From positions 1 through 64,000 of IMG/VR virus record IMGVR_UViG_3300046002_008717: DNA of 64,000 bases; one strand, 5' to 3'. This DNA is from a virus. Under the pieces are notes generated by a model. The model was not told where the DNA came from. It ran no database searches and saw only the letters and a program-made list of their open reading frames with translations. Positions 22,410-63,059 of this stretch are shown one piece after another. The position numbers were made by a program, and so were the translations under genes. Within the stretch, counting starts at the first letter, position 1; the number at the start of each line of letters is the position of its first letter.

Positions 22410-23255
22410 ATGGATATAATATCAATAAATGAAGGATTTTTATCAGATGTTAAAGCATTTTTATCAGGAGAAGGTGAGAATAGTGGTAAAAAAGCATTAA
22501 GCAACGAAGAAGTACATTCAGAAAATTATATGTATTCCGCTGAATTATTGAGAGGATCCATAATTACACTAGCTAATAAATTAGATAATATATTGGCTGG
22601 TATCAATAGGGATGATAGAGATGCAGCAAAATCATCAATATCAGAAATAATTGGATTTTTAAACGAATCATTTAAGAAACTTCAGGAGATAATAGATAAT
22701 ACCAAAACCGGCTCGAATAAAGAAAAAAGAACAGTAATCGACGAGATATCAAATAAGATTAATATCTATAATAGGCCAGGTGGTATAATAGATAAATGGA
22801 AAAGCGAATACTTAACTGCAAATCACATTACGTCCTCATTTTTAGACAAGGGCAGATCATTAATGGAAGAAGCAAGATCTCTTATGAATGATGTTGAAAA
22901 TGTCAAAAAACTAGAGAATAGTATTAAGGACATGGATATGAGAAGCGTTATAAAAAGGGGGGCTGATAAATATAACGGAAAAAAAGAAGAAAAGGTCAGA
23001 AAATATGATCCTGACCAAGATCCAGAGATAGTAAAAAAATACAGAGAAAAATTACATAAATTATTAATAACGAATAATGAAACCGGTCCATATACATCAA
23101 AAGATGATGAGAGTACAAAAGCTGCACAAAATATACTGGGAAGTGTAACAGGGGAGGTTTATGGAAATAATGGAACCAGAAATTTCGATCAATATCAGGA
23201 TGATATAAACGTATTAATAAATAATCAGGAAAAAATTAATAAGCTATTAAAATAA
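22410..23255 (+). CDS. Hypothetical charged helical protein; putative internal head protein
   Basis: N-terminus MDIISINEGFL; same operon as the previous two. Confidence 0.45.
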   Translation: MDIISINEGFLSDVKAFLSGEGENSGKKALSNEEVHSENYMYSAELLRGSIITLANKLDNILAGINRDDRDAAKSSISEIIGFLNESFKKLQEIIDNTKTGSNKEKRTVIDEISNKINIYNRPGGIIDKWKSEYLTANHITSSFLDKGRSLMEEARSLMNDVENVKKLENSIKDMDMRSVIKRGADKYNGKKEEKVRKYDPDQDPEIVKKYREKLHKLLITNNETGPYTSKDDESTKAAQNILGSVTGEVYGNNGTRNFDQYQDDINVLINNQEKINKLLK

Positions 23256-23299
23256 AAAACGTTAAAGTTTTAAAAATATGAAACCATTTCTCATTTCAT

Positions 23300-23400
23300 A
23301 GCTAAGATAATTATCTAATGGGACCCGGCGATGAATACTATTACTATATAGTAATCTAAGAGGGTTTAATTTATATTCACTAGTTGAACCATAAACTTAT
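23300..23400. repeat. Intergenic 101-nt element, copy 1 (candidate structured ncRNA/leader)
   Basis: 99/101 identical to 61821-61921; contains palindromes agataattatct and attactatatagtaat. Confidence 0.9.
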
Positions 23401-23420
23401 GTTCAACACTAGACTAACAC

Positions 23421-23449
23421 GAAACAAAACCACATTTTTACAGTACTAT
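23421..23449 (+). promoter_or_regulatory. GAAAC-N18-TACTAT promoter for the uvsX/replication operon
   Basis: Matches the recurring bipartite motif; 26 nt upstream of the uvsX ATG. Confidence 0.6.
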
Positions 23450-23475: not shown

Positions 23476-24657
23476 ATGGCTAAATCAACAGTAAAAGAAA
23501 AAGTGTCAGGTACTTTTTCATTCCTTGCACTAGATAAGGAACTTTCTAAAATACCCGGATTCGAAACAGGATCAATATTAACAACAAATACATTTAGTGA
23601 AGTTACCGGATGGATCTCAACTGGTTCGTATCTTCTTAATGCACAGATATCTGGATCTCTATTTGGTGGTATACCTAATAATAGATCATTTGGTATAATG
23701 GGTGATCCCGGTACAGGTAAATCTTTCGTATGCCTTAATGTAGTTAGAGAAGCACAAAAGGATGATTACTATGTAATATATTGCGATACCGAAGGAGCTG
23801 TTGATAAAACGGGGGCACTTAAATTTGGTATTGATCCGGATAAAATGAGATACCAACCTATACAAACGGTTTCACAGTTTTTAACTTTCGTTACTAATCT
23901 ATTAGATCTAGTTAAAAAAGCTAGAGCCAGAGGTGAGGAACCAAAAATTTTGGTTGTAGTAGATTCATTAGGGATGCTAAGTACAGATAAGGAATTGGCA
24001 GATGCGATAAAAGGTCACAATGCTGCAGATATGGGGGCAAAAGCAAAAGAACTTAGAAAATTATTCAGAGTAATAACATTAGATTTAACTGCTGCTAGAA
24101 TTCCTTTATTGTGTACTAATCATACTTACTCAGGTGGAGGATTTATGCCAACTAAGGAAAGTTCAGGAGGAGATGGTCCTATTTTTGCTATGTCCGTAGT
24201 TTCTTTTCTATCTAAAGCACAGTTAAAAGACGGTGCAGGTACTAAAACAGGGATAGTAGTAACATCGACATTAAAGAAAAGTAGATTTACTATACCGGAG
24301 CAAATAAAATTTCATATATCATTTGCAAATGGTATGAATCCATATGTAGGTTTAGAAAATTATGTATCTTGGGAAACTTGCGGGATAGAAAGAGGTAAAT
24401 ACGAAGAAGTTAAAAATGCAGAGGGCAAGAAAGAACAAGTCTTTAAATCAAGCGCAACGTCTCAAAGATGGGGTATTAGACATTTAGGAAAAACCGTTGC
24501 ATCTACCCAATTATTTACTGCAGAAGTTTTTACTAAGGAAGTACTAGAAGCTTTAAATGAAAAAGCAATAAAACCTAAATTCAAATTCCCTGATTTAACT
24601 GATCATTCTGAACTTCTTGGTGTATTTGATGATGTTGAATTTGACGATGCCGAATAA
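23476..24657 (+). CDS. uvsX: UvsX/RecA-like recombinase
   Basis: WISTGSYLLNAQISGSLFGGIP, GDPGTGKS Walker A, YCDTEGA, VVVDSLGML, TNHTY. Confidence 0.92.
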   Translation: MAKSTVKEKVSGTFSFLALDKELSKIPGFETGSILTTNTFSEVTGWISTGSYLLNAQISGSLFGGIPNNRSFGIMGDPGTGKSFVCLNVVREAQKDDYYVIYCDTEGAVDKTGALKFGIDPDKMRYQPIQTVSQFLTFVTNLLDLVKKARARGEEPKILVVVDSLGMLSTDKELADAIKGHNAADMGAKAKELRKLFRVITLDLTAARIPLLCTNHTYSGGGFMPTKESSGGDGPIFAMSVVSFLSKAQLKDGAGTKTGIVVTSTLKKSRFTIPEQIKFHISFANGMNPYVGLENYVSWETCGIERGKYEEVKNAEGKKEQVFKSSATSQRWGIRHLGKTVASTQLFTAEVFTKEVLEALNEKAIKPKFKFPDLTDHSELLGVFDDVEFDDAE

Positions 24658-24925
24658 TACTAAATTTAAATATATTCTAGGTTTATGGAAAACCTTACCT
24701 GATTATCCATCAGGTGAGGATCTTCTATATGAAATTAAAACATATCTTATTAAAGAAAAAAAACCAGATGGTGATTTTTCAATTCAAACCATGAATTCCA
24801 TATTTGGATCGGGATGGAAAAATACGAAACATAATGAGATCATTGATGAGTTAATAAATAAAGGAGAAATAATAGAAACCAAAAAAAGTACAGCTGATAA
24901 GATATGGTACAAGATAAAGAAATAG
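24647..24925 (+). CDS. Hypothetical protein (possible winged helix)
   Basis: ATG at 24647 overlaps the uvsX end; IIDELINKGEIIE...WYKI resembles a wHTH wing. Confidence 0.55.
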   Translation: MPNNTKFKYILGLWKTLPDYPSGEDLLYEIKTYLIKEKKPDGDFSIQTMNSIFGSGWKNTKHNEIIDELINKGEIIETKKSTADKIWYKIKK

Positions 24926-60633: not shown

Positions 60634-61188
60634 ATGGCAGGATTATCACACTATAACAATGGAATATCGGCAATCAATAAACAGGAGCCTGTTTATTTGA
60701 ATCAATTCGAAGTAAGTATAATACCTCCTGGAGTTATAGCGGGAGGTAAAATATTACTGGAGCATGTCACAAAAGTTAGTGGACTTTCTCTAGATAAAAA
60801 TCCAGGAATAATACAACAGAAATTTAAATTCGCTAAAAGGAATTATGCTGGTGGTAAACCTGAGAATACCTTTATGGATTTGAGTTTAAGTTTTAATGTC
60901 AATTTGGACGAATCTAATTCAATGTATGTTTTCAAAACATTAAGACAATGGTCGGATTTAATATACAATCCGCTAACTGGAGCAATGGGATTAAAAAATG
61001 ATTACGTCGGAACTATAGTCATATCGATATTTAATAAGCAGGGTGATGTATATAGAAGAATTACATGTAAAGATGCATTTCCAATTAAACCTATAACTCC
61101 GATGAATCTAAATTATACATCTACAGATCTATATAAAATAGATGATATGGTTTGGGCAGTTGATGTTTGGGAGGATCTATTCATATAA
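60634..61188 (+). CDS. Tail tube protein, gp19-like (copy 1)
   Basis: Follows sheath; EPVYLNQFEV, LRQWSDLIYNPLTG, DYVGTI, DAFP. Confidence 0.8.
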   Translation: MAGLSHYNNGISAINKQEPVYLNQFEVSIIPPGVIAGGKILLEHVTKVSGLSLDKNPGIIQQKFKFAKRNYAGGKPENTFMDLSLSFNVNLDESNSMYVFKTLRQWSDLIYNPLTGAMGLKNDYVGTIVISIFNKQGDVYRRITCKDAFPIKPITPMNLNYTSTDLYKIDDMVWAVDVWEDLFI

Positions 61189-61203: not shown

Positions 61204-61779
61204 ATGTCAGGATTATCACATTTTAACAATTCAAAAGCGGGAATACTTAATAGAGAACCAGTTTTTCTTAACCAATTCTCTCTTATTATAAATCCTCCAG
61301 CAGGAATACTGGATGCAGGAAAACAATTTAATGGAGAAAGTATACTTGCACAGCAAGTAAAATCCATAACAGGATTGGCTGTAGATATCACACCAGCACA
61401 AACAGTGGAGCAACATTATAAATTTGCTACCAGAAGATATGCAGGCGGTGAGCCATCTACTAGTGATATGGCGTTATCTATGGAATTTGAAGTCAATTTG
61501 AATGATAAGAATTCTATGGAAGTATATAAAATATTAAGACAGTGGTCAGATTTAATCTACAACCCTCTAACTGGAGCTATGGGATTGAAAACAGATTACG
61601 TTGGATCTATGCTTATTACTGTATTTAACAAAAGAGGTGATATATTTAGAAAAATTAGAATACCATCATGTTTCTTAAGTGAAGCTATAAACCCAATGGA
61701 TCTTGATTATGAAACTCCAGCTATTTATACAATAACTGCTTCATGGATATGCGATACGTGGGAAGATTTATTCATATAA
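61204..61779 (+). CDS. Tail tube protein, gp19-like (copy 2)
   Basis: Paralog of copy 1: EPVFLNQF, LRQWSDLIYNPLTGAMGLK.DYVG, WEDLFI. Confidence 0.8.
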   Translation: MSGLSHFNNSKAGILNREPVFLNQFSLIINPPAGILDAGKQFNGESILAQQVKSITGLAVDITPAQTVEQHYKFATRRYAGGEPSTSDMALSMEFEVNLNDKNSMEVYKILRQWSDLIYNPLTGAMGLKTDYVGSMLITVFNKRGDIFRKIRIPSCFLSEAINPMDLDYETPAIYTITASWICDTWEDLFI

Positions 61780-61820
61780 ACGTTAAAGTTTTCAAAATCC
61801 GAAACCTTATGTCAATTACA

Positions 61821-61921
61821 AGCTAAGATAATTATCTAATGGGACCCGGCGATAAATACTATTACTATATAGTAATCTAAGAGGGTTTAATTTATATTCA
61901 CTAGTTGAACCCTAAACTTAT
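61821..61921. repeat. Intergenic 101-nt element, copy 2 (candidate structured ncRNA/leader)
   Basis: 99/101 identical to 23300-23400, same orientation. Confidence 0.9.
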
Positions 61922-61959
61922 TATCTAACCCCAGTTTTTGAATAAAAGTAATAATTAAT

Positions 61960-61984
61960 AAAGACCTAATTTGGTCTTTTTTTT
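61960..61984 (+). terminator. Rho-independent terminator
   Basis: aaagacc-taattt-ggtcttt followed by a T tract. Confidence 0.75.
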
Positions 61985-62030
61985 ATGTATGGTTATATAT
62001 GTAATATAATAATAAAAATTAATATAAATT

Positions 62031-63059
62031 ATGCAATTAGACATATCACCAGAAGAAATATTGAAAAATAAAGAAATGCAAGGTGGTCTTATTTATGATG
62101 AAGAAATTATAAGTGAAACACCAAAGTCTGATCTAATAGAAACTACACAAGATATAAAGGAAAGTATAGTTTTGGATCCAGAAATAATTTCTGTACCAAA
62201 AGTTGAATCTTCTCTTCCTCCTTCATTTGAATTGGGATGGAAAAATATACCGTTACATATATTACCATCTCGCGGTATTTTTTATCCAGAAGGAACTAGA
62301 ATGGCAATATATCCAGCAGAAGTTAATGAGATACGACATTATTCTACAATAGATGAAGAAGATAGACTAGGTGTCGAAGAAAAACTTGGCTATATATTAG
62401 AGAGGTGTCTTAAAATAGATTTTCCTAATGCTGGTATAGTTTCATATAAACATCTAAAACAAGAGGATAGATTTTTTGTAATAATGGCAATACGTGATTT
62501 ATCGTTCGTTGTAGGTGAAAATGTAATATTACTTACACCCAATAAAAAATGTAAAGATACAGACGAGTGTCCATTTTCTAATGGTATAGAACTTAGAACC
62601 GGTGCTCTAGATTTTTATGAGCTTGATAAGAAAGTATTAAAATATTATAATCCAAAAACTAGAAGTTTTGTATTTAATGTTAAAAAAATTAATAAAAGTA
62701 TAGAAATGTTTATACCTAGTGTAGGAATAAATCAAGCGATTACTAATTTTATGGTATATGCAAATAATAATTCTATAGAAGTGGATGAGGGTTTTATAAA
62801 AATTGCTCCTTTCCTATTTGACGATTGGCAGAAAGTAACCAATACTAGTATACTTTTAGCATTCAGAGAATCTGATAATTGGACTAAAGAAGAATATAGT
62901 TTATATTTCGAATTATCAGAAATTATAAAAATCGGTACAAAACTAGGCATTAAACAAAGATGCCCAGTTTGTGATGAGGAGGTCACTGCCGATATTGCCT
63001 TTCCCTTTGGGCTCAGATCTCTTTTCGTTATTTCAGATATCTTTGGACAATTACTTTGA
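62031..63059 (+). CDS. Baseplate hub/tail assembly chaperone, T4 gp26-like
   Basis: LPSRGIFYP, P..V.E, DRFFVIMAIR, Cys pairs including CPVC; located between tube and tape-measure-like genes. Confidence 0.7.
   Translation: MQLDISPEEILKNKEMQGGLIYDEEIISETPKSDLIETTQDIKESIVLDPEIISVPKVESSLPPSFELGWKNIPLHILPSRGIFYPEGTRMAIYPAEVNEIRHYSTIDEEDRLGVEEKLGYILERCLKIDFPNAGIVSYKHLKQEDRFFVIMAIRDLSFVVGENVILLTPNKKCKDTDECPFSNGIELRTGALDFYELDKKVLKYYNPKTRSFVFNVKKINKSIEMFIPSVGINQAITNFMVYANNNSIEVDEGFIKIAPFLFDDWQKVTNTSILLAFRESDNWTKEEYSLYFELSEIIKIGTKLGIKQRCPVCDEEVTADIAFPFGLRSLFVISDIFGQLL

What the first reader, a model, noticed from the sequence alone, without database searches (positions are those of the whole stretch)
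23257..23412. Duplicated 101-nt intergenic element with its own promoter-like motif (copy 1; copy 2 at 61778-61921)
Seen: 23300-23400 and 61821-61921 differ at only 2 positions although they lie 38.5 kb apart in unrelated contexts (before uvsX; after the tube genes). Upstream, aaacgttaaagtttt and GAAAC-N18-TAAGAT are retained in both while the spacer has diverged. Inside are a 12-bp palindrome (agataattatct), a 16-bp palindrome (attactatatagtaat), and crossing complementary pairs GGACCC/GGGUUU and UGAAUA/UAUUCA compatible with a pseudoknot. Each copy is followed by a different hairpin (gttgaac...gttcaac in copy 1; terminator at 61960 in copy 2). I cannot match it to a known RNA family. Inference: a small structured phage ncRNA (protein or anti-defence decoy, ribozyme, regulatory leader) or a multi-copy DNA site such as an origin or recombination site.
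Basis: partly seen in the sequence, partly recalled or inferred. Interest (0 to 1): 0.8.

Follow-up and report, generated by a model that had tools for sequence, protein, structure and literature searches.

The report
Duplicated uvsX promoter-leader cassette
The repeat is the promoter and conserved leader that normally sit in front of the recombinase gene uvsX in a clade of uncultivated huge phages; this phage holds a second copy behind its tail-tube gene, and comparison with relatives gives no sign of a folded RNA.

Summary
23257-23400 and 61778-61921 are 92% identical, and the 101-nt core differs at 2 positions. A profile search finds only these two copies in the 111.7-kb record.

Copy 1 is ancestral. 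About 40 related huge phages carry a homologous module just upstream of uvsX, and it is single-copy in the complete 373-kb relative G005.

Copy 2 is a lineage-specific insertion between the tail-tube stop codon and its terminator. It is absent at that site in all 80 relatives examined.

The module has three parts:
- an imperfect-palindrome site, AAACGTTAAAGTTTT;
- a GAAAC-N18-TAAGAT promoter of a phage-wide class; the record encodes an ECF-like sigma factor, and I infer, without a test, that this sigma reads the class;
- a transcribed block of about 65 nt, far better conserved (0.85 identity) than the promoter spacer (0.5) or the sequence downstream (0.36).

Rfam gives no match. RNAalifold finds no consensus fold.

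Best reading: a regulated promoter-leader cassette. Its second copy, closed by the tube terminator, would make a transcript of about 150 nt. The function of the conserved block is not known. Moderate interest.

The parts
22410..23255 (+). Gene upstream of copy 1 (281 aa, function unknown)
   Evidence: ORF list. Only a sub-threshold SMODS hit, E=9e-4. Its stop codon lies 1 nt before the repeat starts.
23257..23271 (+). AAACGTTAAAGTTTT, an imperfect palindrome at the 5' edge of copy 1; likely a binding site for a regulator
   Evidence: Identical in both copies. The core CGTTAAAGTT is present once or twice upstream of the uvsX promoter in several relatives. It also sits upstream of 13 small early genes in G006, 15 sites against 1 in the control.
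23280..23308 (+). Promoter P1: GAAAC (23280-23284), an 18-nt spacer, TAAGAT (23303-23308)
   Evidence: Both hexamer regions are retained in the two copies and in about 40 relatives, while the spacers are about 50% identical. It belongs to the same class as GAAATC-N17-CTAAGAT in front of the gp55-like sigma gene. The class is enriched 10-70 nt upstream of ORF starts.
23305..23316 (.). 12-bp perfect palindrome AGATAATTATCT overlapping the -10 box and the expected start site; a possible operator
   Evidence: Paired in 95% of homologues but without covariation. It is a perfect palindrome in 7 of the 13 element-bearing sequences collected through UvsX, this phage included.
23309..23400 (+). Transcribed core of copy 1. 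It holds ATCTAAT, GGGACCCGGCG, the 16-bp palindrome 23340-23355, ATCTAAGAG, and a terminal CC(A/C)TAAACTTAT motif
   Evidence: 98% identical to 61830-61921. The homologous block in relatives shows 0.85 pairwise identity within the closest subfamily, against 0.50 for the spacer and 0.36 downstream.
23379..23412 (+). Copy-1-only hairpin CTAGTTGAAC...GTTCAACACTAG, with no U tract
   Evidence: Fold results. Its 3' arm replaces leader sequence that copy 2 and the relatives keep.
23421..23449 (+). Promoter P2 next to uvsX: GAAAC, 18 nt, TACTAT
   Evidence: Read from the sequence. Relatives have GAAAC-N18-TATGAT at the same place, about 28 nt before the ATG.
23476..24657 (+). uvsX (RecA-like recombinase)
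   Evidence: phrog_97 E=3e-57 and Pfam RecA E=3e-12.
61204..61779 (+). Second tail-tube paralogue, upstream of copy 2
   Evidence: phrog_32623, phrog_45 and phrog_3629. 449 relatives found.
61778..61829 (+). Copy 2 regulator-site motif (61778-61792) and promoter P1' (GAAAC 61801-61805, TAAGAT 61824-61829)
61830..61955 (+). Copy 2 transcribed core (to 61921) plus about 35 nt of further uvsX-leader-like sequence that copy 1 lacks
   Evidence: 61905-61950 aligns with the leaders of L144 and L225. The whole segment is missing in 80 relatives, whose gap between the tube gene and the next gene is 69-94 nt in the 31 measured.
61960..61987 (+). Intrinsic terminator of the tube operon. It would also end a transcript started at P1', giving an RNA of about 150 nt
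   Evidence: Terminator scan. A homologous terminator follows the tube gene in relatives. The predicted transcript was folded.
61992..62001 (+). Late-promoter-like GTTATATA motif before the next gene (62031-63059)
   Evidence: GTTATATAAT is conserved at this place in the relatives.

Best explanation
The element is the regulatory module of the recombinase gene uvsX in a clade of uncultivated 250-430-kb phages. The module has three parts. First, an upstream imperfect-palindrome site. Second, a promoter, GAAAC-N18-TAAGAT, of a phage-specific class that the phage's own ECF-like sigma factor probably reads (inferred, not tested). Third, a conserved stretch of about 65 nt at the start of the transcript, made of short linear motifs (ATCTAA repeated, CCC-GGG, CTAAGAG, CCCAAAC-type repeats). 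These motifs look like recognition sites for a protein on the DNA or on the unfolded RNA, not like a fold. In relatives the module is followed by a variable region and then by a second promoter of the same class directly before uvsX. In this phage the whole module was copied into the gap between the tail-tube stop codon and its terminator. There it forms a promoter-to-terminator unit that would give an RNA of about 150 nt. The same sequence also becomes the 3' end of the abundant tube mRNA. The near-identity of the core, beside diverged flanks, is best explained by gene conversion between the two direct repeats. Shown: homology, position, ancestry, promoter-class membership, selection on the block, and absence of a conserved fold. 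Inferred: the sigma dependence, the start site near 23315 and 61836, the protein partner, and any role for copy 2.
For: Copy 1 is homologous to sequence upstream of uvsX in G005 and G006. The same holds for 12 IMG/VR relatives and 30 metagenome contigs. The module is single-copy in the complete genome G005, by motif and by profile. No element lies downstream of the tube gene in 80 relatives, G005 and G006 among them. The promoter class is enriched before ORF starts: 10 of 44 sites in G005, against 1 of 31 in each of two controls. An ECF-like sigma (r2 plus r4_2) lies at 65.4-66.0 kb of the record. Identity profile: spacer 0.50, block 0.85, downstream 0.36. The block survives intact where genes have been inserted between it and uvsX (L248, L250, L308). 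All 10 upstream mismatches between the two copies fall outside CGTTAAAGTT, GAAAC and the -10 box. Copy 2 keeps leader sequence that copy 1 has lost. The terminator follows copy 2.
Against: There are no expression data, so promoter activity and the start site are inferred from motifs alone. The -10 box TAAGAT is unlike the usual CGT-type -10 of ECF promoters. Perfect palindromes are present in only about half of the homologues, so an operator reading is not general. Part of the homologue set was collected with a pattern that fixes the -35 and -10 boxes, which inflates their apparent conservation. The conserved motifs beside diverged spacers in copy 2 could predate the duplication, if copy 2 came from another lineage; they would then not show that copy 2 is in use.
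Confidence: 0.6

Rival explanations
1. Copy 2 is a functionless by-product of recombination. A solo promoter cassette was left behind by the phage's recombination machinery, much as PeSL cassettes move about in T4-type phages. Gene conversion from the functional uvsX copy keeps it similar.
For: Copy 2 occurs only in this phage among 80 tube loci and 30 element-bearing contigs. The region next to the module is a hot spot for tandem repeats and gene insertions in relatives. The sharp contrast of 2/101 against 10/43 mismatches fits a conversion tract.
Against: The regulator site, the -35 box and the -10 box are all intact in copy 2 although the spacers between them have diverged. The insertion spans a complete module and sits exactly between a stop codon and a terminator.
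Confidence: 0.2
2. It is a replication origin of the T4 oriF/oriG type. A middle-class promoter makes a transcript that stays annealed as an R-loop and primes DNA synthesis. The downstream direct repeats serve as iterons, and this phage has two such origins.
For: T4 oriF and oriG are elements of about 100 bp made of a middle-mode promoter plus an AT-rich downstream region, and oriE has 12-nt iterons (PMC3016281). Here a phage-class promoter is followed by a G cluster, AT-rich DNA and CCCAAAC-type repeats. These repeats are expanded into tandem arrays in relatives: about five 34-nt units in L115/L198, and 44-nt units in L269. The module lies beside the recombinase and helicase genes.
Against: T4 R-loop origins need no specific downstream sequence, whereas this block is strongly sequence-conserved. 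The cumulative GC skew of complete G005 rises monotonically, with no turn at the element. No initiator gene was identified.
Confidence: 0.12
3. It is a structured small RNA, ribozyme or decoy that depends on the hairpins and pseudoknot proposed by the first reader.
For: Both predicted transcripts fold somewhat better than shuffles, z = -2.0 and -2.5. GC-rich islands stand in AT-rich sequence. Copy 2 has a promoter and a terminator.
Against: Rfam gives no match at the gathering threshold or at E up to 10. RNAalifold gives no consensus on 36 sequences, and the single-sequence folds differ between homologues. A scan of column pairs finds no covarying helix. One of the two differences between the copies breaks a proposed pair without compensation.
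Confidence: 0.06
4. It is an RNA-level translational operator, like the T4 gene 32 leader. A protein, possibly UvsX or an ssDNA-binding protein, would nucleate on the 5' block and spread along the AU-rich leader. Copy 2, sitting in the tube mRNA 3' end, would titrate that protein late in infection.
For: Conservation is in linear motifs rather than helices. The leader is AU-rich with repeated motifs. Copy 2 lies inside a late transcript upstream of its terminator.
Against: A second promoter lies between the block and uvsX, so many uvsX transcripts would lack the block. In L250 the block is 1.7 kb away from uvsX, with genes on the opposite strand in between. There is no direct evidence for any RNA-protein contact.
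Confidence: 0.08

Closest known systems
PeSL cassettes (promoter-early stem-loop) of T4-type phages (PMC2839356, PMC4122927)
   Same: A composite intergenic module of about 100 bp, with an AT-rich upstream part, a promoter and a G-run/C-run segment. It is repeated within a genome, borders sites of gene insertion and deletion, and brings its own promoter to a new place.
   Different: PeSLs carry sigma-70-like early promoters and number about 50 per genome in hyperplastic regions. This module has a GAAAC -35 box, is single-copy and tied to uvsX in relatives, and has two copies here. It also has a long sequence-conserved transcribed block that PeSLs do not have. Its stem-loop and terminator function is not supported.
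T4 replication origins oriF(uvsY)/oriG(34) and the oriE iterons (PMC3016281)
   Same: A phage-specific (middle-type) promoter followed by AT-rich DNA within about 100 bp, next to recombination genes. Direct repeats lie nearby in relatives.
   Different: The sequence downstream of the promoter is conserved in a sequence-specific way. There is no composition-skew signal. No replication data exist.
ECF sigma-dependent promoters (for example the Bacillus SigW type, TGAAAC-N16-CGTA; from general knowledge)
   Same: A GAAAC ('AAC') -35 motif, spacing of 16-18 nt, and an ECF-like sigma gene in the same genome.
   Different: The -10 box is TAAGAT/TATAAT-like, not CGT-like. The sigma-promoter pairing is not tested.
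Terminated phage or bacterial small-RNA genes
   Same: Copy 2 has a promoter, about 150 nt of conserved sequence and an intrinsic terminator.
   Different: There is no conserved fold and no Rfam family. The ancestral copy has no terminator and reads into uvsX.

Membership tests
   No hit at the gathering threshold in the window. No hit inside the element at E up to 10.
RNAalifold consensus is empty, 0.0 kcal/mol. No helix of 4 bp or more apart from the -10 palindrome.
   z = -2.0 to -2.5 for the predicted transcripts; -1.7 to -2.0 for the 113-nt core.
PeSL regulatory cassette | Strong sigma-70-like early promoter | tested here: not met
   The -35 position reads GAAAC, not TTGACA. The sigma-70 consensus scan does not call P1.
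PeSL regulatory cassette | Many copies per genome, concentrated in hyperplastic regions | tested here: not met
   One copy in the complete genome G005 and two in this record.
PeSL regulatory cassette | Sits at the boundaries of gene insertions and deletions | tested here: met
   Genes are inserted directly after the block in L248, L250 and L308. Tandem-repeat expansions occur in L115/L198, L269 and L283.
T4 oriF/oriG-type origin | Phage-specific middle-type promoter | tested here: met
   P1 fits the GAAA[CT]-N16-18-TAnnAT class, which is enriched before ORFs. Its timing in infection is not known.
T4 oriF/oriG-type origin | AT-rich downstream unwinding element without a sequence requirement | tested here: not met
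   The downstream block is conserved in sequence, 0.85 against 0.36-0.50 in the flanks.
T4 oriF/oriG-type origin | R-loop formation or autonomous replication | not testable with these tools
   This needs experiments. GC skew in G005 shows no turn at the element, which is weak evidence against.
ECF sigma-dependent promoter | -35 box with an AAC motif, 16-18-nt spacer, and the cognate sigma encoded in the genome | tested here: met
   GAAAC-N18 in both copies. Sigma70_r2 (34 bits) and r4_2 (41 bits) lie in one 208-aa frame at 65.4-66.0 kb of the record.
ECF sigma-dependent promoter | Transcription depends on that sigma | not testable with these tools
   Needs in vitro transcription or expression data.
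Terminated small-RNA gene | Promoter and intrinsic terminator bracket a short conserved non-coding stretch | tested here: inconclusive
   Met for copy 2. Not met for copy 1 or for the relatives, where the transcript would run on into uvsX.

The most novel reading that the evidence does not exclude
The conserved block of about 65 nt behind the GAAAC-N18-TAAGAT promoter is an undescribed protein-recognised control element for recombinase expression, or an R-loop replication start, in huge Bacteroidota-type phages. The second copy in this phage is then a stand-alone small RNA or decoy, or a second origin, driven by the phage's own sigma factor.
Probability: 0.2. Interest if true: 0.55.

Novelty: new variant of a known kind. 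Interest (0 to 1): 0.35.

Why it matters
It provides a defined promoter class and one clearly constrained non-coding block for a large, uncultivated clade of 250-430-kb phages in which no regulation has been studied. It also catches a whole regulatory module being copied to a new place in a phage genome, which is how T4-type phages are thought to reshuffle gene expression. If the block proves to be a protein-binding leader or an origin, it would be a handle on how these phages time recombination and replication. As it stands, it is a well-explained duplication with one open functional question.

Tried and rejected
- Rfam at the gathering threshold and at E up to 10: nothing in the element. Nothing either in relatives with long inserts.
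- The exact 48-nt core in IMG/VR: no hit.
- The pattern GGACCCGG...GAGGGTTTAA in IMG/VR: 9 hits, all chance matches in coding DNA.
- BLASTN against INPHARED phages: only a 36-nt chance match.
- A small ORF (MGPGDEYYYYIVI): rejected. The ATG is absent in several subfamilies, and the stop codon and the substitution pattern are not those of a coding region (sequences).
- A general operator or promoter word: the exact TAAGATAATTATCT occurs once in each of the complete genomes G005 and G006, and counts at up to 2 mismatches are no higher than the controls.
- Leader motifs elsewhere in G005: none.
- GC skew as a sign of an origin: monotonic.
- Palindromes as a universal feature: not conserved in all subfamilies.
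Contexts of the closest tube-protein relatives were taken from IMG/VR and from the metagenome pattern scan instead.

Full report
OBSERVATION. The two stretches are as described. 23257-23400 and 61778-61921 align without gaps at 92% (family D13). Of the 12 mismatches, 10 lie in the first 43 nt and 2 in the last 101 nt (23333 G/A, 23391 A/C; Fisher p=1e-4). All 10 upstream mismatches fall between three words that stay identical: AAACGTTAAAGTTTT, GAAACC and AGCTAAGAT. The 12-bp and 16-bp palindromes are exact. The record holds only four palindromes of 16 bp or more, and two of them are these. BLASTN with short words and a profile HMM find no third copy in the 111.7-kb record. The record is rated 39% complete, so further copies cannot be excluded. 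The flanking genes are a UvsX-like recombinase (23476-24657) and the second of two tail-tube paralogues, which ends at 61779.

WHAT KIND OF PHAGE. UvsX finds its best matches among metagenomic huge phages. The tube protein has 449 relatives, some on contigs of up to 403 kb. Relatives with terminal repeats are 373 kb (G005) and 430 kb (G006). The DNA is 31% G+C. Early genes of G006 carry TAnnTTTG boxes, the Bacteroidota type of promoter box. That points to the host phylum, but this is an inference.

COPY 2 IS AN INSERTION. All 80 IMG/VR loci with a tube protein 75-82% identical were searched for the element, and none has it. The 31 whose gap was measured share one layout: tube stop codon, about 25 nt, an intrinsic terminator, a GTTATATAAT motif, then the next gene, in a gap of 69-94 nt. 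In the window the gap is 251 nt, and the extra DNA lies between the stop codon and the terminator. G005 and G006 are among the loci that lack it.

COPY 1 IS ANCESTRAL. The element matches DNA just upstream of uvsX in G005 (80% over 82 nt, E=4.5e-12) and in G006. Collecting uvsX loci from IMG/VR and scanning metagenomes with GAAAC-N16-21-TAAGATRATTATCT gave about 40 homologues, 36 of them distinct. All lie upstream of uvsX. In L248 and L250 genes have been inserted between the module and uvsX, and in L308 a forward gene follows the module with no uvsX in the stretch examined. More distant uvsX relatives (about 67% identity) lack the element. The exact -10 word occurs once in G005 and once in G006. 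The profile finds one copy in G005.

Copy 2 continues past the 98% core with about 35 nt that align with the relatives' leaders. Copy 1 has a deletion at that point, plus a small inverted duplication that creates its private hairpin. So the duplication is older than the near-identity of the core suggests. Gene conversion between the two direct repeats is the simplest way to explain a 2/101 core beside 10/43 flanks.

ANATOMY. The parts, from 5' to 3', are as follows.
- (i) CGTTAAAGTT, once or twice. Extended to 16 nt (AAAACGTTAAAGTTTT) it is a 14/16 imperfect palindrome. In G006 the same word occurs 15 times against 1 in the control. Thirteen of these sites cluster at 158-170 kb, at a fixed distance upstream of the promoter boxes of small early genes, in either orientation. 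It is most likely a regulator site.
- (ii) GAAAC-N18-TAAGAT.
- (iii) A transcribed block with ATCTAA repeated at conserved spacing, CCC(N)GGG(G), and CT(A/T)AGAG followed by CCC.
- (iv) A variable stretch with CCCAAAC(T)TTAA-like repeats. These are expanded into tandem arrays in some relatives: about five 34-nt units in L115/L198, 44-nt units in L269, and a duplication in L283.
- (v) A second promoter, GAAAC-N18-TATGAT (TACTAT here, 23444-23449), about 26-28 nt before the uvsX ATG.

PROMOTER. GAAA[CT]-N16-18-TA[AT][GA]AT lies 10-70 nt upstream of ORF starts at 10 of 44 sites in G005, against 1 of 31 in each of two controls. In the own record the figures are 4 of 23 against 1 of 10 and 0 of 10. 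One of those sites is GAAATC-N17-CTAAGAT in front of a gp55-like sigma gene. The record encodes an ECF-like sigma, with r2 and r4_2 in one 208-aa frame at 65.4-66.0 kb. An earlier first-reader note on this genome had proposed that this sigma reads the GAAAC class. I confirmed the gene and the positional enrichment, but not the pairing of sigma and promoter.

SELECTION. Mean pairwise identity in the closest subfamily (15 sequences) is 0.50 upstream, 0.50 in the promoter spacer, 0.85 in the block from +1 to the GAGCCC motif, and 0.36 downstream. Over all 36 sequences the figures are 0.42, 0.46, 0.64 and 0.30. The block also persists intact where it no longer adjoins uvsX. It is therefore a functional unit in its own right.

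IS IT A FOLDED RNA? Rfam gives nothing. RNAalifold returns an empty consensus, and the single-sequence folds are weak (-4 to -20 kcal/mol) and differ between homologues. A search over all column pairs finds only the AGAT/ATCT palindrome, and it does not covary. The GGACCC/GGGUUU helix pairs in 22% of cells, UGAAUA/UAUUCA in 52% and the central hairpin in about 46%. GGGTTT is peculiar to this phage: relatives read CCCAAAC there. The predicted transcripts fold modestly better than shuffles, z = -2.0 and -2.5. Palindromes without a spacer cannot make stable hairpins, and they suit dimeric DNA-binding proteins better. They are perfect in only about half of the homologues, however.

MECHANISM. Most likely (0.6) this is a regulated, phage-sigma-type promoter whose first 65 transcribed nucleotides are recognised as sequence, either as DNA operators or as unfolded leader RNA. 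In this phage the duplicate makes a unit of about 150 nt closed by the tube terminator (61836-61987), and it also forms the 3' end of the tube mRNA.

The rivals are:
- a functionless recombination remnant kept alike by conversion (0.2);
- an origin of the T4 oriF/oriG kind, a promoter-primed R-loop with iterons (0.12). It is attractive by layout (PMC3016281). Against it, the downstream sequence is conserved, which T4 origins do not need, and the GC skew of G005 shows no turn;
- a gene-32-like RNA operator or decoy (0.08);
- a folded small RNA (0.06).

COMPARISON AND NOVELTY. The nearest described things are the PeSL promoter/stem-loop cassettes of T4-type phages (PMC2839356; PMC4122927). These too are composite modules of about 100 bp that move promoters around and mark the boundaries of insertions and deletions. 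The present module fails two defining features of that family: a sigma-70-like early promoter, and many copies per genome. It works like such a cassette but is not a member. The conserved block has no described counterpart that I could find. The finding is a new variant of a known kind, of moderate interest.

LIMITS. There are no expression data. Part of the homologue set was selected by a pattern that fixes the promoter boxes.

Noticed in passing
L125 (G006:158000-171000): A 12-kb array of small early genes (50-160 aa). Eleven are each preceded by the same cassette: AACTTTAACG, 5 nt, ATCGT, about 20 nt, a TTATATTTGC box (Bacteroidota-type TAnnTTTG) and a GTAATTAAAATCA leader. In some of them the motif overlaps the stop codon of the gene before it.
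   Followed up: partly
L115/L198, L269, L283, L235/L244 (between the conserved block and uvsX): The stretch after the block is hypervariable. It holds about five 34-nt tandem units in L115/L198, 44-nt units in L269, a duplicated ATCTTAGAG...CCCAAA unit in L283, and AAAGACTAG-type repeats in L235 and L244.
   Followed up: partly
L248, L250 (same record as L134), L308: Genes are inserted directly after the conserved block. L250 has 1.7 kb of opposite-strand genes before uvsX, L248 has opposite-strand coding sequence, and L308 has a forward gene. The block marks a boundary of insertions and deletions.
   Followed up: partly
L204 and L122: In L204 uvsX appears interrupted right after the GDPG of the Walker A motif: the match spans 1465 nt for 326 residues. 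L122 also has an over-long match. This could be an intron or a homing-endonuclease insertion. Rfam found nothing.
   Followed up: partly
window 60634-61188 and 61204-61779: Two tandem tail-tube paralogues, 76% identical over 172 nt (repeat family D12), both matching phrog_32623.
   Followed up: no
window 61992-62001, and the 31 tube-downstream gaps read among L013-L092: A GTTATATAAT motif sits 15-25 nt before the gene that follows the tube terminator in the relatives read. It is probably the late-promoter word of this clade.
   Followed up: no
G000:65400-66010 and 73250-73420 (beyond the window): An ECF-like sigma (r2 plus r4_2, in a 208-aa frame) and a second, r2-only (gp55-like) sigma. The second is preceded by GAAATC-N17-CTAAGAT.
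   Followed up: partly
window 22410-23255: The gene upstream of copy 1 gives a sub-threshold hit to the SMODS nucleotidyltransferase domain (E=9e-4, 19.9 bits against a cut-off of 26.5).
   Followed up: no
G000:100602-100639 (beyond the window): A 38-bp perfect palindrome with A and T runs on either side, probably a bidirectional terminator.
   Followed up: no
window 24875-24903: A further match to the promoter class (GAAACC...AGCTGATAAGAT) lies between uvsX and the DnaB-like helicase gene. An ATG follows the -10 box directly.
   Followed up: no
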